Positions 4,835 through 55,830 of a stretch of 64,000 bases of DNA are shown in pieces. Numbering within the stretch: position 1 is the first letter of the stretch; every line of letters starts with the position of its first letter. The stretch is taken from positions 66,898,001-66,962,000 of the forward strand of contig OX638150.1 of assembly GCA_951804945.1 (NCBI GenBank), given 5' to 3'. The notes under the pieces are model-generated. The model was not told the DNA's origin. It did no database searches and saw only the letters and a list, made by a program, of their open reading frames with translations. Made by a program: the position numbers and the translations under genes. Origin of the DNA: Podarcis cretensis (lineage: Eukaryota).

Positions 4835-6490
4835 TAATAGATGATGTATTAGATGTTCAGAAGAGTTGATAAAGAAAACTAGAACAACACAGTAAGAAAT
4901 GATTGTATGTAATGAAAAATGCAAAAAAACAAAACGAAAAGCACCATGGACTTTCTGGCAGTCAGTTTTAGGAAACATCTTTTTATAGAGAAAGAATTGG
5001 AAACAGTCTTCTTGCATACCCTGTATTGAAATTGTGCTGGATGGTATCCGACTATTTTCTCTCTGTAATGTAATCCTTGTATATCTGCTATTTTTAAAAT
5101 CAAATCTGTTTCAATGGCCAGTAATGTGTAGCTGTATCACTTCATGAGCTGTTGTGCTGGACTTCAGGGATGCTGCAGAATAGTTGGATATCAGGCATAT
5201 CATATCAACAAAGGTGGTCTGAATGTCTTATTTTTTGACTGAGCAGGTTTCTCACTCTTTGAAGTGCTCACTCTACTTCCACATTGCAATGGGATTCCTA
5301 GGCGTAAGCTAAAAGCTTCAAATCTACACGCACTGAGGAAGCTCTCTAATGAATTCAGCTTTTGAATAGACATTTAGGATTCCACTGAAAGTCTTTTCCA
5401 AAGCATCTGAAATTAGTGCCAGACCACTGAGACCCATTTGCAAAATGGAGAGTATGCCAGGGTCAACTAACAGATCTTTATTTATTCAAGACATTTCTAA
5501 GCTGTTTAATTATTCACATTTCTTAGCAGTGTACATAAAAACCATCTACAGAAAATGAGATAATAAAACAAATTACCAAAAAACCAAATACTACCTTAAA
5601 ATGCCTGCTAGAACAAGAAAGTAGTTTTCATGCACCTGAAGTCCAGCCAGGAAGGTGCCTGTCTAATCTCAGTTGGAAGAGAGTTCTACAGACTTGGGCC
5701 CACTACATTGCCTCTTATACCAGGGGTAGCCAACAATTGTTGGGCTTTAATTCCCATAGTCCTTGTCTATTGGTCGTGCTGGCTAGGGTTGATAGAAGTT
5801 GGAGTTCAGCAACATCTGGCTACCTCTGTCTTACATTACAATCACTCTTTTTGCAATAGTGATATGTTGTTGGTATTCATCTGTCTCGAGAGACAATGGA
5901 GTGTGTGTCGAGGGGTGAATTCAAACTTTTATCTCCGGGCCGCATGAGTGGGCAGTGTGTATGTAGGTCCTAGGCTCCTCTTGACCTCACTGATGTGGTC
6001 CAGAGGAAAGCAGCTTGGCTGCAGGAGTTGCCGGAAGGAGGTTACAAGATGCCATCCAACCATCTTAAGAACTCCACTCCAGTTTTGTGTAGAGTTTACT
6101 GCTAAGCCTTTTCTTCTCCCGAAGATAGCCCACAAGGCAACAGAGGTTTGGGATCAGAGTTTTCCTTCTACATAGGGTATTTTCCCAGGCTGACGAGCCC
6201 CTTCATTATATCCACATACCAACAGTAGTAGTCAAGGAACAAGGCAAATGGTTCTTCCAGATTCTTTTTTTAAAAATCAACTGCCAACATATGTCACAGG
6301 TGATCTATTAATGTTGGACTTGTACTACTAGACCTGGTCAGTACTGAGCAAAGTCTTGGCAGTTGCTACGGAACTCTGTATGCCATCATTTATAGTTGGC
6401 CCACCAAATCATTAATAATACAGTCGGCCACCAAGTTTTCATTAGCCTGATAAACTTGGTGGATTTACAAAAAAAAAAATCAAATCAGAA

Positions 6491-6599
6491 TTGTAGCCAA
6501 TGCAAGCCCTACTCAGAGTAGACATTGAAGTTAATAGACATGACCATCCTAGGTTCATTAATTTTGTTCCTCTACTCTGAGTATAACTTAGTTGGATAC
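6491..6599. mobile_element. Palindromic short repeat (MITE-like) interrupted at its right tip by the copia insertion
   Basis: Inverted arms ttgtagccaa / ttggatac and actcagagtaga / tctactctgagt. A related degenerate copy lies at ~17045-17142. Confidence 0.7.
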
Positions 6600-6915
6600 T
6601 GTTGAAATTGCAGTGTCCCAAGCACAGCGGAATGATGAGGAGTACGTGCCACATACTCTATATTACTTTATTTACACTTCAAAGCTGGTAGATTACAGAA
6701 AAACATCTTGCCTCTGCCGGAGCAGAGAAAGCATCCTCTCTCCTCTAAAGCACGGAGAGAACTAACTCTGAGAACAGTGAAAAACAGGAAACCAGTGTAC
6801 GTCACATCCAGTCTCCTTTCCCGTGAGAAACTCCAACAGCAATTGACTGTGGAATGTAAACACCTGTCTCGTGACAAGCACTTTCGCTGCACAGTGAAGA
6901 GAGCAGAAACCAACA
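6600..6915 (-). repeat. Copia 3' LTR
   Basis: TGTTG...CAACA termini. Minus-strand AATAAA at 6667-6672. Identical to 11315-11630 except at 2 terminal positions. Confidence 0.96.
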
Positions 6916-6929
6916 TCCTCCCCCTTTCT
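6916..6929 (-). promoter_or_regulatory. Copia polypurine tract
   Basis: Minus-strand AGAAAGGGGGAGGA lies immediately before the TG of the 3' LTR. Confidence 0.92.
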
Positions 6930-6962
6930 GTGAACATCACTGGGCAGCGTGTTCGTACAATA

Positions 6963-8072
6963 TCAGTACAAACCCAACTTCTGCACATAGGTACAGTGTT
7001 GATCCCTTGATACAATCTTGGACAATACATCAGCAGGAATTTCATTACCTGGCATATAGGACACTGTTACGAGTCCCTTCTGAATACGTTCCCTAGCATG
7101 TTGCACCTTCAATTGCAAGTGCTTCGTGCTTTGCTTACAACCTTCAGAATTCAGCAAAGCCAAACATGCTTTGTTGTCCTGGTAATCCTTGATTGGACAT
7201 TTGACAGGAATTTTCATGTCTTTGCATAATTGTAACAACCATTCACAATCTTTAAGTGAATAAGACAGTGCATTCAGTTCAGCTTCACAAGTACTTAAGC
7301 TAACTGTTGTTTGCTTCTTGCATGACCAATCAAATAGACCCTGATTGTACATGTAGCAAACTCCAGACGTACTTTTCCTGTCTGTAGTGTCACTTCCAAA
7401 ACTTGCATCTGCAAATATCTCAAGACCACCAGACTTCTGATTGTTAAATCTCAGTCTGTAATGCATAGTGCCTTTCAAATAGCGCGCTATGCGTTTCAGA
7501 GCTTTCCAATCCTTAACAGTAGGATTGTTGACTTGTCTGCTTAGCAAATTACAGCTAACAGCAATGTCTGGTCTTGAACATCTGGCAATGAAGTTTAGCT
7601 TGCCTAGCACACTTCTGTACAGTGTAGTGTCAGAAAATGCTTCTTCAGTGTCATCTACCTGATAACCTGTTGTCATCGGTGTGTCTACAGGGTTAGCATC
7701 CATCAGGTTTAGTTTGCTTAACACATCAGCAATTTTCCGTGACTGGTGTACTAGAATGTTACCATCTTGATCTCTCTCTATTTCAAGAGATAGGTAGTTG
7801 TTTACCTCACCAAGATCTTTCATGTCAAAGTGTTCTTTCAGTTGAGCTAGGGCGTTATTGTACATTGTGACATTATCCCAAAAGAATAAAAGATCATCAA
7901 CATAAAACAAGCAATACAATTTCTTTTGCCCCTCCTCTTTGATAAATACACATGGATCAGCTTTCCCTTGCTGAAAACCTAGAGAAAACAATACCTCAGT
8001 GAGTTTTGTGTGCCAACACCGTGCACTTTGTTTGAGACCATAAAGGGACTTTTTCAGAGCACAAACAAATCC
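6963..8072 (-). CDS. Copia pol C-terminal part (RT catalytic region and RNase H), continuing after the frameshift
   Basis: The alternative frame from ~8072 reads GFVCALKKSLYGLKQSARCWHTKLTEVL and runs into ORF 6963-7991, which has YVDDLL, RPDIA and RNase H motifs FADASF, TCEAE, DNKAC, ADVLSK. Confidence 0.93.
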   Translation of the reverse strand, partial: GFVCALKKSLYGLKQSARCWHTKLTEVLFSLGFQQGKADPCVFIKEEGQKKLYCLFYVDDLLFFWDNVTMYNNALAQLKEHFDMKDLGEVNNYLSLEIERDQDGNILVHQSRKIADVLSKLNLMDANPVDTPMTTGYQVDDTEEAFSDTTLYRSVLGKLNFIARCSRPDIAVSCNLLSRQVNNPTVKDWKALKRIARYLKGTMHYRLRFNNQKSGGLEIFADASFGSDTTDRKSTSGVCYMYNQGLFDWSCKKQTTVSLSTCEAELNALSYSLKDCEWLLQLCKDMKIPVKCPIKDYQDNKACLALLNSEGCKQSTKHLQLKVQHARERIQKGLVTVSYMPGNEIPADVLSKIVSRDQHCTYVQKLGLY

Positions 8073-10995
8073 GTTTTACCTGTACGCCATCAGGTGGAAG
8101 CATATAAAGAGATTCACCTAGAGATCCGTACAGAAAAGCTGTATTCACATCGTGGTGACTAATGTGTAGATTCTCCTCTGCAGCTAGCTTGAGCATAAGC
8201 CTAATGCTCTCATACCTCACTGTGGGTGAGTAGGTCTCGTGATAGTCTTCACCTGGTATCTGTGCAAAACCTCTGGCTACCAATCTGGCTTTGTGTCTAA
8301 CTATCTTGCCATTTTGATCAGTCTTCGCTTTGAAGACCCATTTGCTTCCAAGCAGTTTCATTCCTGGAACTACTGGAACAAGTTCCCATGTTTTGTTCCT
8401 TTCTAAGGAATCAAGCTCAGCCTTCATGGCATTTAACCATGGCTCAGCTTCCTTTGAATCCAAATCCTGGATTTCTTGGAAACTTGAAGGTTCAAATACC
8501 TTCTTGGAGCTTTTAACAGCTGTTACTGCTATCTTAGCAAACTCATCAGCAAATCTCTTTGGAGGTCTGCCTTTCGTGGCTCTTTGTGACCTGCGAATTA
8601 GCCTTAGGTCTTCAACACTCTCCTCTTCCTTCTTAGGAGAAAAGTGACCTATTGTGAACAATGGTTCCTCCAATTCTTGATCAGAGCTTTCAGAGGGTCG
8701 CATAGAGGCTTTCGCACTCTTGAAATCCTCTGAATCACTCGATTCAGTTTCAGACTCAGAATCAGAATCAGAACCTTCATCAGTGGGTGTGGGTTGCTGT
8801 GGCTGCTTTTGACTATCCTCAGTCTCATCACTGTCATCAGGATAACATTGGAAAATTCCCACATTCTCCCCCCACTTGGCATTGTACTCAACACTTCTTG
8901 TGAGCTTAATTGTTTTAGAGTCAGTCATCATTATTCTGTAAGACCCTTTCTGATAACCTAGAAAGATACCATGCAAACCACGCTTGTCTAACTTGGAGTT
9001 TTGTGGTGTGTGAACCCACATGTCAGAACCAAAAATTTTCATGTGTTTGACGTATGGCTTCTTGCCAAACATCTTCTCATAGGGGGTACAACCAATCGCT
9101 GAAGATAACCTGCGATTATAACTGTAAGTAAAACACGAGAGAGCTTCGGCCCAATAACTCTCTGGAAGATTGGCATCATGCAGCAAGGTTTTTAAACCTT
9201 GAAGCAATGTTTGATTTGCCCTCTCGCAAAGTCCATTCTGCCATGGCGAGCGAGGACTAGACAAATCGTGTTGAATTCCTTTCTCAGACAGAAAAGCTTC
9301 AAACTGCTGAGAAGTGAATTCCCCCCCGCGATCAGTGAAAAGAATTTTTATCTTCTTACCATGCACATTTTCCAACCAAGCACAGAATTCCTTGAACCTT
9401 GGAAAAGCCTCTGATTTCTGCTTGAGATTGTACACATAAATATATCTGGAAAATGCATCAATGAGAACCATGAAGTACCTGTTTCCACCCAAAGAGGGCG
9501 CTAGTGGTCCAACCAAATCAGCATGAACAACCTGGTATGGTTCTGTAGCTTGCCTACTAGACACCTTACCTTTCGCAGCCATTTTCACCTTGTTTGCTGC
9601 GCATGCCTTGCACTTCATGTGGTACCTGCAGGGTTTAATAGTCATACCTTCAACCAAGGCAGGCATTTTAGATACTGCCTCAAAATTCAAATGACCAAAT
9701 TTTCGATGAAAATCGTGAATACATTCTGCATGCAAACTTTTGTTAGAACCTGCAATGCAACAAGTGTCATCCTGCACAATATCATCATAATACAAAACAT
9801 ACAAACGATCAACATATTCAGCATGCAATACATAATCATTTTTCTTTGTGATGATGCACTTTTTGTTCTTAAAGGAAACGTCAATTTTCCGCTCATTCAG
9901 CTGTCCAACGCTGAGCAGATTATGTTTGGCATCTGGTACGTAAAGCACATCCTGTATCGATAAGTCCAAACTGTGAAGAACAACAGTTCCGTAGCCTTTA
10001 CTGGGGATTGTGTGGTCATCCGCCTGGTGAATCGCACCTTCCTGCGGTGTAAAAGACACGAACAGTCGCTTATCGTTGCACATGTGGTGCGTTGCAGCCG
10101 AATCAACAACGAAGAAAGATCTAGACGTCTTCTGGACATCTGCAACCTCTGGAGTGAAACGTGAGACCATTGCCTTGTGCTGCGTTGTCCTGGACACCAG
10201 ACCTTTGCCTTTGCTCTGGCCTCTTCCACGCGATGAGCTTCCGCTGCGCTGCTCTGTCTTGGCCCTGGAATATTTGCATTCCCTCTTCATATGGCCTAGA
10301 CGTCCACACGAGTAGCATTTCACTGCCTTCAAAGCTTTGGCGCCATCTGGTGGTTCCACTGCACTCTGGGATGACGTCTGTGAAGAATCCCCCTTGCCCA
10401 TGCAGCTAGCACCCCGGCGGTCTGCTTCATTCAGAATCACGGCAGTAACATAGTCCACTGTCAGTTGAGCAGTTGGCTGTACAGCAATCTGAGTGGCAAC
10501 AGACTCCCAACCTGAACCCAAAGATTGTAGTATCATGAAGGAATACACAGCCTCTGGAAAGTTGAGTCCTCTCTGTTGCAGCTCATGTCTCAGATTCTGC
10601 ATCTCCATCAGATGTGTACGCACATCTCCACCTTCAGCAAGAGCCATATTATGCAGCTTGGTAAAGTAAAACATAGTGGATCCAGCTTCTGTCCTCAAGT
10701 GAGCCTCTCTCAAAGCGTCCCAAATTTGTCTGGCTGAGGTCTTATCACGCAATAGACAGAGCTCTTCTGGGGATACTATCAATGTAAGAGTTCCCCTTGC
10801 TTTGGAATCTTTAGCTTCCCATGCATCTGTAACTGGAGCTGGGGGGGTGTCTGTAATTACTTCAAACAGACCCTCTTTCCGCAGAATAGCCTCTGCATAG
10901 AGAACCCAGTCCGCATAGTTTTTCTTATTGAGCTTAGGAATCCCACAAGCATCCTGAAGGGCCATCATGACTCTGGCATTAGCCTTCTGCGTCAT
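7996..10995 (-). CDS. Copia gag-pol polyprotein, N-terminal part (Gag, protease, integrase, start of RT); frameshifted near 8072-8077
   Basis: CCHC knuckle CYSCGRLGHMKREC; protease VDSAATHHM; HHCC motif (HRKFGH...CKAC); integrase DDE (HADLVGP, TDRGGEF, NGLCER); copia GIFLGY..KGSYR; RT motifs KARLVARG and HHDVNTAFLYG. Confidence 0.95.
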   Translation of the reverse strand: MTQKANARVMMALQDACGIPKLNKKNYADWVLYAEAILRKEGLFEVITDTPPAPVTDAWEAKDSKARGTLTLIVSPEELCLLRDKTSARQIWDALREAHLRTEAGSTMFYFTKLHNMALAEGGDVRTHLMEMQNLRHELQQRGLNFPEAVYSFMILQSLGSGWESVATQIAVQPTAQLTVDYVTAVILNEADRRGASCMGKGDSSQTSSQSAVEPPDGAKALKAVKCYSCGRLGHMKRECKYSRAKTEQRSGSSSRGRGQSKGKGLVSRTTQHKAMVSRFTPEVADVQKTSRSFFVVDSAATHHMCNDKRLFVSFTPQEGAIHQADDHTIPSKGYGTVVLHSLDLSIQDVLYVPDAKHNLLSVGQLNERKIDVSFKNKKCIITKKNDYVLHAEYVDRLYVLYYDDIVQDDTCCIAGSNKSLHAECIHDFHRKFGHLNFEAVSKMPALVEGMTIKPCRYHMKCKACAANKVKMAAKGKVSSRQATEPYQVVHADLVGPLAPSLGGNRYFMVLIDAFSRYIYVYNLKQKSEAFPRFKEFCAWLENVHGKKIKILFTDRGGEFTSQQFEAFLSEKGIQHDLSSPRSPWQNGLCERANQTLLQGLKTLLHDANLPESYWAEALSCFTYSYNRRLSSAIGCTPYEKMFGKKPYVKHMKIFGSDMWVHTPQNSKLDKRGLHGIFLGYQKGSYRIMMTDSKTIKLTRSVEYNAKWGENVGIFQCYPDDSDETEDSQKQPQQPTPTDEGSDSDSESETESSDSEDFKSAKASMRPSESSDQELEEPLFTIGHFSPKKEEESVEDLRLIRRSQRATKGRPPKRFADEFAKIAVTAVKSSKKVFEPSSFQEIQDLDSKEAEPWLNAMKAELDSLERNKTWELVPVVPGMKLLGSKWVFKAKTDQNGKIVRHKARLVARGFAQIPGEDYHETYSPTVRYESIRLMLKLAAEENLHISHHDVNTAFLYGSLGESLYMLPPDGVQVKRICLCSEKVPLWSQTKCTVLAHKTH

Positions 10996-11294
10996 CTCTG
11001 CTGCTTTAAATCATGCTGCGTCACTGCTGCAGCTGCTTTATTCCAAAAGCACTTTTAAAAGTTACTTTCGGTTTCCCCAGCATAGGAGCTTGTTCCTTTG
11101 AGCCTTTGCCTGTGCCCGGCAAAATGGCCATAAAAGTTCAGAGTCCAGCCATAAAGCCATTAATTAGAAGCTGGCAGGCTGCCTGGAGCATGAGCACATA
11201 CCTCATCAATCATCTTTACGCGCAGAGCAGATACCGTCCGATCCGTCCCTCTGCATTCCGATCCTTTTGCCAGCATTCAGATGACTGCGTCTTT

Positions 11295-11309
11295 CTGGGC
11301 CCGATAACC
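11295..11309 (-). promoter_or_regulatory. Copia primer-binding site complementary to the anticodon arm of tRNA-iMet (half-tRNA priming type)
   Basis: Minus strand reads GGTTATCGGGCCCAG. The Drosophila copia-type PBS is GGTTATGGGCCCAG, so there is one extra base. Confidence 0.8.
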
Positions 11310-11314
11310 AGGAA

Positions 11315-11630
11315 TGATGAAATTGCAGTGTCCCAAGCACAGCGGAATGATGAGGAGTACGTGCCACATACTCTATATTACTTTATTTACACTTCAAAGC
11401 TGGTAGATTACAGAAAAACATCTTGCCTCTGCCGGAGCAGAGAAAGCATCCTCTCTCCTCTAAAGCACGGAGAGAACTAACTCTGAGAACAGTGAAAAAC
11501 AGGAAACCAGTGTACGTCACATCCAGTCTCCTTTCCCGTGAGAAACTCCAACAGCAATTGACTGTGGAATGTAAACACCTGTCTCGTGACAAGCACTTTC
11601 GCTGCACAGTGAAGAGAGCAGAAACCAACC
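11315..11630 (-). repeat. Copia 5' LTR
   Basis: Direct repeat of 6600-6915. On the + strand it begins TGATG instead of TGTTG and ends CAACC instead of CAACA. Confidence 0.95.
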
Positions 11631-13316
11631 CTCTGTTGTAACGTTACTACTTTGTGGAATGTGAATAAATTCCTTCTCTCAGTAAAATTGAGCCCATCGT
11701 GCTGATAGCTTCCAAATCTCTGAGGTTTTGTCTTGTCACTCTTTCAGGAAGTATTATTTATTTCCTTACACAAAGTCTTAGCCCCTGTGCTTCCAGAATC
11801 CTTTTTTTTTTAATAAAAAAAAAACCTGACACAACACTCACTGCAAAGCAGCACACATGAATAGCAGCATCTTGTTCTTTATGTAATTCATCTGGTGATA
11901 ATGGCACCTGTAATTATTTTTTGAGGGCTAACAATGGTCACAAATGGTGCTGGACTCATAATTGGGTCACACATTCTGAGCATCACCTGGGAACACTTGA
12001 AAAAATGGTTCTAAAGTAATTTGCATTTCTTTGTACATGAGCATTCTTGTGATTCCACTTCAGAATTTGTCTCTCAATGGATGCCAACAATATAAATATA
12101 AAAGATCTACGAAAAACATACAAATAATTACAAAAAAGAAGCATAGTCCCACAATCTAGCTGCAGCTTTCTGAGCCACTTGAAGTTTCTGAGCACTTTTC
12201 AAAGACAGCCCCATGTATGCTTAAGCAGAAATAAGTCACATTCCTTTCAGCCAGACCTATTTCATAGCAATTGTATTTTAAGATTGCAGCCTAAATGTCA
12301 TGATAACCTTTGAGCTTGAGCAAGTGGAAACTGCATATACAAAATCCCCTGAATTCTTAGAAAATGTATCACTTGAAATGTATGTATTCTACATCTTGTC
12401 TGTTTTCTTTAACATATATTGTTAGTGTCATTTCCCCCATCTGAAAATGACAGGCAACTGAAAGTAGTATTCATTTCTGATCCAAAGAGCATCAATTTTA
12501 CTCCTAAGGAGTTGTTGCTGTCAGCTACAGAAAAGGTTTAGTGAAGTGTGAAAACTGACATTGAGTAAATAAGCACTCATTTTCCTGGTGATGCTGTGGG
12601 CGGGGGGGGGGGGGGGAGGAATCCATGAGGGCTCAAACAAAATGTTTGGGCAGTTGAAATATTGAATGTTTCTTGTTAATTAAAACAGGAGCAACATGCC
12701 AAAGTAAATAAATTAAGTCTTCATTAACCATCTTAATTGAATCATTACCAATTGACTCTGCACAAATGAATAAGCCACAGGTGTAGTACCATGTCAGGAG
12801 GTCTGCAAACTATTCTTCAAAAATTGCCATCAGGTTATAGAAGCTTTATTATGCTAAGAAGGTTTTTCAAACTGAGCTAGTGTGATCTGAGTTCAAATGT
12901 TTAATAGGATGTCACACAGGGACATACAGATAGATCTGTATTATAGTACATGTGTGGTTCCACATTTAAATGCACTGTAAAGTTCACTGGGTGACCTTGG
13001 ACAGTCACTGCCTCTCAGTCTAACCTACTTCACAGGTTTATTGTGGGTATTGAATGAGGAGCAGGAAAACCATGTATAACACCTTGAGCCCCTTGGAGAA
13101 AAAGGTAGGATATAAATGCAATAAATAAATATGGGTCAGTATAGTAGCCAGAAAGCTTGGTGAGAAACCCATATTCAAACATTTAGTTGCAGAATAACAC
13201 TGGACAAGTCACACGTTCCTATTATCAATTTCATAATTGATAAAAAATTATGAACAGGGAAAAATGAAGATTGCAAAACACTGCATTCATTTGAATTGGT
13301 AGTGCAATATAAATGT

Positions 13317-19843: not shown

Positions 19844-19967
19844 ACTTGAGTCACCAACACGCTTTCTGGTGATGGAGGCTCCCAAGGGAGTTGAAATCAA
19901 TGCAGAAGCTGGCAACTTGGAAGCTACATGTAGGACAGAGCTCAAGCTGGAATCCAAAGATGGAGAG
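19844..19967 (+). CDS. SGCD: Delta-sarcoglycan, penultimate coding exon (124 nt)
   Basis: Acceptor tttcag|A and donor GAG|gtaggt. Translates (R)[41 protein letters not shown], nearly identical to the recalled human SGCD segment [41 protein letters not shown] and unlike SGCG/SGCZ. Not shown in the ORF track. Confidence 0.96.
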
Positions 19968-21065
19968 GTAGGTAGAACGCTAAGTAAATCTCCAAGTGAA
20001 TAATCTGGACCTTCCATGAGAGCCTTTTATTTTTAATTACTGTTGTACAGTGTGCAGTATCTTCAGGCAGTTTGTAGGTTTAAAAAATGGGATGACGGTG
20101 TTCACTTAAGCAATTCTATTTAGCACTGCAGCTAAAAAGAAGTGGTAGGTTTAGCATGTGTGTTAGAGCTCCTTGAAGGAATGATGGAACTCATTGTATG
20201 CAGACTACATTCCTTCTATACAGAATGGCGAGGTGATTCATTAGTTTTAAAGTGCTGGGATAATAGCATTGGTTGTGTGAAACAGATTTATGCAGCTGTA
20301 AAAATGTGCAGTACTACTAAATTCTCTTCTTCCTTGTCACTTTAAAGTGAGATTTACTTGACTAGCATAATTAAATCTTATATCATGCATTTTTCCAATG
20401 AGGAGCACTTAACTCACCTGTATTGATTTGTAAAGCTGAGCATCACTTTCCTATTTGAAGGAAAGGAATATGTCAGAACAAACCTTTCCGCTGTTGAAGA
20501 TGCTTAAAGAGTCTGGGATTATAGCCCAACCGTTGTCCCCAAAGTATCTCAGAGTATTGTTCATTAAGGGACTTATTTGTAAATCTGCTATTTAAGAACT
20601 TTAGAGCAGCTGCAATATAATGTGAAATGAACATTATTTTAATTTTTTGTTTTCTTGTTCTGCAAAAGGTAGAATGCTTGATTCCCACTTTACAGCTCAG
20701 AGATAACTTTCAGAGAAAACAACACATGTGGCTCTTGATGCTTAATTTGAAAAATGAAACTTATTAAAGAATGTTCCTTCTGGCCTAGATGCCATTCATT
20801 TTATTTCCAAATGTGTGGGAGGTGGTTGTAAATATTCAGGGGTGAGTGGAGATATGGGGGCAGTCTACACATATTCAGAGAGTCCCTCAGCAAAAAAGCA
20901 AAAAGAGGTACCCTACCAAAAGTGGCTCAGTTCTCTAGTTCTGGGAAGCTTAACTTCCAAACTAATTTCTGATTTTTTTTTAATGTTTCTGAAATTTAAC
21001 ATGAATATAATAAGTAGGCTCTACAGCTGTCCTTTTAGTGTGCTGGCATTTTATTAATTATCCAG

Positions 21066-54735: not shown

Positions 54736-54789
54736 GGATCTACAAGGGTTGAAACAAACAAGCATTAGTACCAAACTCAGCATTTGTTT

Positions 54790-55830
54790 CGCACATAACC
54801 CTTGAAAGCATCAGATTTCCATGTCCCAAATCCTTGATCCTGGCAGCCGAGAAGCCCCAATGGGCCACCATAGTCGCTGCACCTATGTGAAAGGAATGAG
54901 GGGCGAAACCAGAGGCCGAGATCCCACAAGCAGAGATGGCCTTACGCATGACTTTTGTGAAGTAGTGTTGCGCAAAAGGGTGACCATTTTCAAGCATGAG
55001 TAGCGGGCCGTCCCTAGGAGGTCTCAAGGCCAAATACTTCCTTACATCCTTGACCGGGCATGGGCCCACCTCCCCAGTCGCTGGGAGGCGGACAACCTCC
55101 CCCCGACCCAGCTGGTCAGTTTTGGAGTTGCGCACTACAAGTCTCAACTCCAAAAGGGGAACGCATATATCCTGAAGGAGCAACCCATGAGAACCAGCAA
55201 CTTCTAGGATCGAGCCAGCCCCCCATGGGAACAAAAAGCCAAATATTTCTGTATCCAATAACAGGGCAAGGGCCCACCTTACCCGTGACTGGAAGCCTGA
55301 TGATGGCAACCCTGCTCACTAGGTATGACTTAGAGCTCCAGACACTTATGACAAGCTCCAAAGCAGATAAGGAAAAATCCTGAGGCAATAAGCCTCCAAA
55401 CTCTCCGCCCCGTGCTGGCTACAACACAATTTCCCCAACCCTCAGTACACCAAAATTACAATGGAATACTGAAAGACAAGTCTTAACTTGTTGCGGATAC
55501 TGCATAGGTCAAGATTGACCGGCTTCCTGCCTGCAGTCCTGTGAAGGCTGGAGTCTTTTCCAACCTTCCGAGACCCTGCGCACGGCACACTTTTAGAAGG
55601 GTCTCTGAAAAATTAAAGCTTTACTCTAGCAGGCATTGCAGCGGAGTGAATTCTGATAGATTTAACAGTGCATCCAATCTGCAGCAGGTAGGCCAATTAC
55701 TGCAGGTCCTGCTCAGAGAATGGAGGCAAGTTCCTCTGAATGGCTGGGGACTGCCAGCTAAATGCTAAGGAATCAGTCCAGGCCTTCTCATAAGACCTGA
55801 AAGCAGAAGGGGAAATGTAAGCTACTACTC
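54790..55830 (-). pseudogene. Ngaro tyrosine recombinase, decayed
   Basis: ORF 54740-55309 has RNSKTDQLGRG, CPV, FAPHSFHIGAAT and IKDLG(RW) motifs. The catalytic HxxR is mutated to HSFH. The N-terminal part is fragmentary. Confidence 0.88.

What the first reader, a model, noticed from the sequence alone, without database searches (positions are those of the whole stretch)
6600..11630. Very young, nearly intact Ty1/copia retrotransposon in a lizard SGCD intron
Seen: the LTR interiors are identical over ~310 bp, all gag/PR/INT/RT/RH motifs are present, there are no internal stops apart from one frameshift, and CpGs are retained. Established: copia elements are absent from mammals and birds and are sparsely described in squamates. 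Inference: the family is currently or very recently active, and this insertion may be polymorphic within the species.
Basis: partly seen in the sequence, partly recalled or inferred. Interest (0 to 1): 0.7.

Follow-up and report, generated by a model that had tools for sequence, protein, structure and literature searches.

The report
Lizard copia copy among capsid-losing sisters
This is a real but ordinary jumping-gene copy in a lizard muscle-gene intron, likely about a million years old and broken in its copying enzyme; the odd part is its family, where two-thirds of copies have lost part or all of their shell protein and likely borrow it from complete copies.

Summary
The anatomy is largely confirmed: a 5.0-kb Ty1/copia element lies antisense in an SGCD intron, with 316-bp LTRs differing at 2 positions, all domains and one frame break in RT. 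Corrections: it has no target-site duplication (a 4-bp microhomology junction instead), and copia is abundant, not sparse, in squamates (PMC11889832).

The copy is middle-aged for its family: 8 private changes in 3,386 bases, about 1.35 My (0.6-2.7). Both junctions occur in 3 of 3 conspecific samples. The right junction also occurs in a second species label; three other labels have the empty site. Polymorphism is unsupported, and no horizontal-transfer signal appeared.

The family has about 550 internal copies and includes younger ones, so recent family activity stands.

Unexpected: 336 of 516 motif hits, and 35 of 52 resolved chromosome-1 copies, are in-frame capsid deletions in two nested forms. 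Their pol shows purifying selection (33 synonymous:21 non-synonymous vs 247:608), and the form lacking most of the capsid C-terminal domain is the youngest class. This resembles rice Tos17. The scan's index held no earlier look-alike.

Verdict: ordinary locus, moderately interesting family.

The parts
6600..6915 (-). 3' LTR, 316 bp, normal outer end
6916..6929 (-). polypurine tract abutting the 3' LTR
   Evidence: sequence; same tract in sister copies
6963..8075 (-). ORF2: C-terminal RT and RNase H, cut off from ORF1 by the frame break
8060..8085 (-). region of the frame break inside RT; private to this copy (0 of 99 comparable sisters share it); mutation vs assembly error not resolved
7996..11010 (-). 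ORF1: Gag (capsid, CCHC knuckle), protease, integrase, N-terminal RT
10405..10962 (-). capsid (NTD and CTD, boundaries transferred from Drosophila Copia); complete here, partly or wholly deleted in about two-thirds of the family
11295..11309 (-). primer-binding site pairing with nt 26-39 of a tRNA-Met(CAT) gene of this genome, with one extra base in this copy; 5-nt spacer to the LTR at 11310-11314
11315..11629 (-). 5' LTR; outer end one base short and joined to host DNA through a 4-bp microhomology (11626-11629), no TSD
6480..6599 (.). short palindromic host repeat (MITE-like) split by the insertion; its last bases continue at about 11627-11631
19845..19968 (+). SGCD coding exon (about aa 190-233), nearest identified exon downstream; element is antisense to the gene

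Best explanation
The locus is a full-capsid Ty1/copia retrotransposon copy with a frame break in reverse transcriptase and no target-site duplication, which likely inserted about 1 My ago, has likely drifted neutrally since, and belongs to a roughly 550-copy family in which most copies carry in-frame capsid deletions and likely move by borrowing capsid from complete copies. Inferred cycle (established copia biology, not tested here): the RNA is packaged in a Gag particle; minus-strand synthesis is primed by the 5' half of initiator tRNA-Met (pairing shown, use inferred); the plus strand is primed at the PPT; integrase inserts the DNA. Here the U5 end joined normally inside a small palindromic host repeat. 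The U3 end joined through a 4-bp microhomology with no duplication and no loss of host DNA (shown by empty sites in other species). Whether this happened at integration or by a small deletion soon after is inferred; integration is slightly favoured. The copy cannot make a full RT-RNase H from its own frame if the break is real. No effect on SGCD is shown.
For: Domain order and split RVT_2. Gag matches the Copia capsid 8vvw (E 3e-10). PBS is exactly complementary to tRNA-Met nt 26-39 in 24 of 55 sisters. Empty site with the left flank running straight into the right flank in organisms B, D and E; LTR-to-flank junction in C; both junctions in 3 of 3 samples of A. 13 of 19 other copies of the host repeat continue with the bases that start the right flank. 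Two TSD-less sisters show long (about 40 and 70 bp) duplications, which deletion cannot make. Private changes: 8 of 3,386, 1.35 My (0.58-2.66) at 1.75e-9 per site per year (rate from PMC12142722). Singletons across 103 copies are neutral-like (247 syn:608 non-syn). Exact 18-mer counts: LTR 1,267, RNase H 545, full capsid 180, deletion junction 336, reversed-pattern controls 0. The RT/RH tree groups it with an Elgaria protein (SH-aLRT 100).
Against: Junction contigs reach only 27-28 letters (A) or 19 visible letters (C) into the LTR, under the tool's 31-letter bridging guide, and the tables were cut (108 joints not shown), so an empty allele in A is not excluded. All A samples come from one study. 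The age rests on a borrowed rate, and singletons include pre-insertion changes, so it is an upper-leaning estimate; LTRs alone allow 0.02 My. The frame break could be an assembly error: no locus-specific read covers it. Capsid borrowing is untested. Copies recombine heavily and nearest pol neighbours often cross classes (22 of 53 deleted copies are nearest a full copy), so selected pol alleles may be imports.
Confidence: 0.8

Rival explanations
1. The copy is very young (under 0.2 My) and polymorphic in the species.
For: Only one internal LTR substitution; the family has very young copies; singleton counts overstate age when source lineages are unsampled (11 of 3,534 with 55 sisters, 8 of 3,386 with 102).
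Against: Unbroken junction contigs in 3 of 3 samples; same junction in organism C; mid-family rank, a private frame break and a private LTR change.
Confidence: 0.1
2. The missing TSD marks a chimera: ectopic recombination between two copies or an assembly mis-join or collapse.
For: No TSD and an altered LTR end.
Against: Left and right flanks are contiguous in the empty allele of three other species labels with no host loss; short-read contigs reproduce both junctions.
Confidence: 0.02
3. The family entered lizards by recent horizontal transfer from fish, amphibians or invertebrates.
Against: Closest named relatives are squamate (Elgaria 58%, Podarcis 67% over 35% of the query); all others are 43% or less over long alignments; a long stem separates the clade; the published survey finds several squamate subclades.
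Confidence: 0.04
4. For the family only: capsid-deleted copies are plain passengers whose intact pol is constantly re-imported from full copies by template switching, with no selection on their own Pol.
For: Linkage decays within about 50-200 bp and 85-92% of site pairs over 50 bp apart show four gametes; only 50 of about 180 full copies were sampled.
Against: Both deletions keep the frame (12 of 15 and 32 of 38 copies) through a remnant helix with 9-10 of 25 codons changed vs 2 in full copies; 19 of 21 deleted copies form one supported pol clade (98/98); alleles confined to deleted copies are syn-rich (33:21).
Confidence: 0.35

Closest known systems
Squamate Copia of the Mtanga clade (PMC11889832; passages, supplement search and supplementary file 6 read)
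   Same: Ty1/copia in a squamate at hundreds of copies; the survey lists 1,004 copies for Podarcis muralis and 304 for Zootoca vivipara and puts all 750 amniote elements analysed in Mtanga.
   Different: Clade membership not tested against reference sequences (their FASTA and tree figures could not be read). The passages seen say nothing on capsid deletions.
Corn snake Copia in OCA2 and CLCN2 (PMC4657000, PMC11948899; passages seen)
   Same: Young squamate copia inserted in genes, multi-copy (85 copies), confined to close relatives.
   Different: That element is 5,832 bp, its two insertions differ by one base and cause phenotypes; here the nearest sampled sister differs by 1.6% in pol and no effect on SGCD is shown.
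Drosophila Copia (PDB 8vvw, 8s41; PMC11835246 passages)
   Same: Single gag-pol frame, two-domain capsid plus CCHC knuckle, PBS against the middle of initiator tRNA-Met (half-tRNA priming in Copia is recalled).
   Different: 5-nt spacer between LTR and PBS, variable PBS core, protease motif DSAA in 44 of 55 sisters instead of DSGA.
Rice Tos17 (PMC3977881; abstract and results section read) and barley BARE2 (recalled; search listing only)
   Same: Copia elements that lack Gag, keep Pol and are proposed to use the capsid of a relative.
   Different: Tos17 has no gag remnant and its helper is a distinct element (57% DNA identity). Here the losses are nested and in frame, keep the start codons and zinc knuckle, and sit inside one recombining vertebrate family.

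Membership tests
Ty1/copia (Pseudoviridae) | Domain order Gag-PR-IN-RT-RH | tested here: met
   RH by recalled motifs, not by Pfam
Ty1/copia (Pseudoviridae) | RVT_2-type RT and copia-type Gag | tested here: met
Ty1/copia (Pseudoviridae) | Direct LTRs with PBS and PPT | tested here: met
Ty1/copia (Pseudoviridae) | 5-bp target-site duplication | tested here: not met
   absent at this copy; present in 41 of 55 and 40 of 50 sisters, so met by the family and lost locally
Autonomous copia copy | Uninterrupted gag-pol frame | tested here: not met
   frame break in RT; 8 of 17 full-capsid census copies are uninterrupted
Mtanga clade | RT/RNase H groups with Mtanga references in a tree | not testable with these tools
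   reference FASTA unreadable; membership inferred and the squamate grouping
Half-tRNA-iMet-primed copia | PBS pairs with the anticodon arm, not the 3' end, of tRNA-iMet | tested here: met
   nt 26-39 of genomic tRNA-Met(CAT); initiator identity recalled; priming itself not tested
Gag-less non-autonomous copia (Tos17/BARE2 type), for the sister classes | Capsid lost, Pol kept | tested here: met
Gag-less non-autonomous copia (Tos17/BARE2 type), for the sister classes | Mobilised with capsid supplied in trans | not testable with these tools
   inferred from amplification to 336 hits, with TSDs in most census copies

The most novel reading that the evidence does not exclude
A vertebrate copia family taken over by stepwise capsid cheaters. 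One lineage first lost most of the capsid C-terminal domain, then the whole capsid by a template switch at a 5-bp microhomology. Both losses keep the frame into a Pol that stays under selection, so the cheaters outnumber complete copies about 2:1 and form the youngest wave: a natural defective-interfering system recorded in a lizard genome.
Probability: 0.45. Interest if true: 0.55.

Novelty: new member of a known kind. Interest (0 to 1): 0.3.

Why it matters
The locus itself adds little: squamates are the richest metazoan hosts of copia. It is a clean presence/absence marker (present in A and C, absent in B, D, E) for species relationships or introgression. The family matters more. If capsid-deleted copies keep Pol under selection and outnumber their helpers, it gives a vertebrate case of Gag parasitism, known to me only from plant copia, and a dated series of copies for asking whether Pol acts in cis and how cheaters limit a family's spread.

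Tried and rejected
1) A first sample of 55 sisters picked by similarity to this copy looked like one finished burst (mean 2.96 LTR mismatches, dispersion p 0.11). The chromosome-1 census overturned this (variance 7.1 vs mean 2.15, p about 1e-14), so 'family extinct' was dropped. 2) The deletion-junction motif was first read as one class; some searches showed two. 3) Lack of near-identical sisters (nearest 1.1% or more) was not used against recent activity, because copies are recombinant mosaics and only 103 of about 550 were compared. 4) Single-sequence AlphaFold of Gag was unusable (pLDDT 43); no fold search was run. 5) Expression: no RNA holder listed. 6) An end bias of TSD loss (about 6 altered U3 ends vs 2-3 U5 ends among 19 inspected) is too small to test. 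7) A recalled motif for the preceding SGCD exon found nothing in the window; the intron number is left open. 8) Rows dropped: 4 of 59 two-LTR sisters with unreliable LTR calls; 11 of 63 census hits without a resolved LTR pair; 2 of 52 in the TSD census. 9) Literature searches for a capsid-deleted lizard copia and the scan's index found nothing relevant. Repbase, Dfam and subscription journals were not searchable, and the FASTA, pptx and picture PDFs of PMC11889832 could not be read, so prior description is not excluded.

Full report
Observation. The element lies on the minus strand at 6600-11629. Its LTRs are 316 bp and differ at 2 positions, one internal and one terminal. Two long frames carry copia Gag, a CCHC knuckle, protease, integrase and an RVT_2 domain split between them, so the order is Gag-PR-IN-RT-RH with one frame break near 8072. 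Gag matches the Drosophila Copia capsid structures. The PBS pairs with nt 26-39 of a genomic tRNA-Met(CAT), exactly in 24 of 55 sisters and with one extra base here. A PPT abuts the 3' LTR. CpG o/e is 0.43 against 0.24-0.26 in the flanks. The host gene is SGCD and the element is antisense to it.

The ends. The copy has no target-site duplication, while 41 of 55 similarity-picked sisters and 40 of 50 census copies do. The left flank is a short palindromic host repeat; 13 of 19 other copies of it continue with the bases that begin the right flank. Contigs of organisms B, D and E show exactly that empty site: the left flank runs into position 11626. So no host DNA was lost or duplicated, and the outer end of the 5' LTR is joined through four shared bases. 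This rules out a chimera of two loci. Aberrant joining at integration or a small deletion soon afterwards both fit. Long duplications at two other TSD-less copies show that irregular integration occurs in this family, which tilts me to the first.

Distribution. Contigs of three samples of organism A (one study) cross both junctions without a break and with at most one gap. They reach 27-28 letters into the LTR, under the tool's 31-letter guide, and the tables were cut, so homozygous presence is inferred, not shown. Organism C has one contig covering 11612-11900 in a single piece, 19 letters of it in the LTR, so it carries the same right junction. The insertion is thus older than the A-C separation or crossed it by introgression. 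It is absent from the sampled B, D and E haplotypes.

Age. One substitution in 315 bp allows 0.02-5 My. Private changes in pol give more power: 8 in 3,386 bases among 103 copies, 0.24%, or 1.35 My (0.58-2.66) at 1.75e-9 per site per year (rate from passages of PMC12142722). Singletons across copies are neutral-like (247 synonymous:608 non-synonymous), whereas alleles shared across classes are not (158:122), so singletons mostly date from after insertion. In the chromosome-1 census 27 of 52 copies have fewer. The frame break is shared by 0 of 99 comparable sisters; whether it is a mutation or an assembly error could not be tested.

Family size and activity. Exact 18-mers occur 1,267 (LTR), 545 (RNase H), 180 (full capsid) and 336 (deletion junction) times, with 0 for reversed controls; these are lower bounds. 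My first sample suggested one finished burst, but it was picked by similarity to this copy. A census of all 63 motif hits on chromosome 1 resolved 52 LTR pairs: 12 identical, strongly over-dispersed. Activity therefore ran over a long span and into the last few hundred thousand years by the same clock. Current activity is not testable here.

Capsid-deleted sisters. Of the 52 census copies 17 have a full capsid, 15 lack most of the capsid CTD, and 20 lack nearly the whole capsid (domain limits). The second deletion joins the gag start to the junction of the first at a 5-bp microhomology, so the forms are nested; the order CTD-loss first is inferred. The start codons stay in frame with the knuckle in 12 of 15 and 32 of 38 copies. 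The remnant CTD helix differs from the window copy at a median 9-10 of 25 codons against 2 in full copies, while protease and integrase do not. Non-CpG pol alleles confined to deleted copies are 33 synonymous:21 non-synonymous against 247:608 for singletons (p 2e-6). The CTD-less class is the youngest (mean 0.67 LTR mismatches vs 3.12 and 2.45; p 0.012 and 0.001; 11 of 15 frames uninterrupted). My reading: these copies borrow capsid from complete copies and still use their own Pol. Against it: recombination is pervasive, nearest neighbours often cross classes, and only 50 of about 180 full copies were seen, so selected alleles may be imports.

Relatives. The closest proteins are two unnamed ones (79% and 69%) and squamate ones (Elgaria 58%; Podarcis 67% over 35% of the query); everything else is 43% or less over long alignments. 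A quick tree of 36 RT/RH rows groups the element with Elgaria and the two unnamed proteins on a long stem (SH-aLRT 100). Fish and amphibian copia were not among the named hits, so the transfer test is weak, but nothing points to it.

Literature. PMC11889832 (passages, supplement search, supplementary file 6) finds Copia in 23 of 24 squamates, 66% of 49,920 copies, all amniote elements in Mtanga, and about 1,000 copies in one lacertid. Young corn-snake copia in genes are published (PMC4657000, PMC11948899; passages). Gag-less, Pol-keeping copia are described in rice (PMC3977881; abstract and results); BARE2 is recalled. Searches for a lizard case found none, within a library that lacks Repbase and most subscription journals.

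Verdict. The locus is an ordinary, middle-aged, non-autonomous copy of a common squamate copia group: new member of a known kind, interest 0.3. The capsid-cheater structure of its family is the part worth following (probability 0.45, interest 0.55 if true).

Noticed in passing
genome-wide; e.g. L132 and L032: Two nested in-frame capsid deletions in sister copies: one keeps the capsid NTD and first CTD helix, the other loses nearly the whole capsid at a 5-bp microhomology between the gag start and the end of the kept part. Chromosome-1 census: 17 full, 15 and 20 deleted.
   Followed up: yes
window 11295-11314 and sisters: The PBS is nearly invariant in its first four bases but has at least six variants in the part facing the tRNA anticodon loop, and the 5-nt spacer varies too. 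This would fit copying of the primer stopping at the modified base next to the anticodon (recalled, untested).
   Followed up: partly
L125, L080 and other TSD-less sisters: About a fifth of copies lack a 5-bp TSD; two have long host duplications (about 40 and 70 bp) and several have altered U3 ends, as in aberrant one-ended integration.
   Followed up: partly
pol of 56 copies: Strong mosaicism: r2 falls from 0.23 within 50 bp to 0.04 beyond 2 kb (0 of 300 permutations as extreme), pointing to many co-active, recombining source copies.
   Followed up: partly
window 10090-10105: Protease motif reads DSAA in this copy and 44 of 55 sisters, while three outside relatives have DSG; a family trait, not damage.
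   Followed up: partly
window 54740-55315, minus strand: 191-aa frame that resembles a DIRS/Ngaro tyrosine recombinase by recalled motifs, in a GC-rich stretch at about 52-59 kb; Pfam gave no hit.
   Followed up: no
L081/L082 (C1:93.66 Mb) and L114 (C1:0.23 Mb): One copy is split in pol by an insertion of about 6.4 kb; another appears to lie in tandem with a shared LTR.
   Followed up: no
window 11612-11900: Organism C's right-flank haplotype is nearly identical to the window, while B, D and E differ more, although B held more of the left-flank words; possible introgression or lineage sorting.
   Followed up: no
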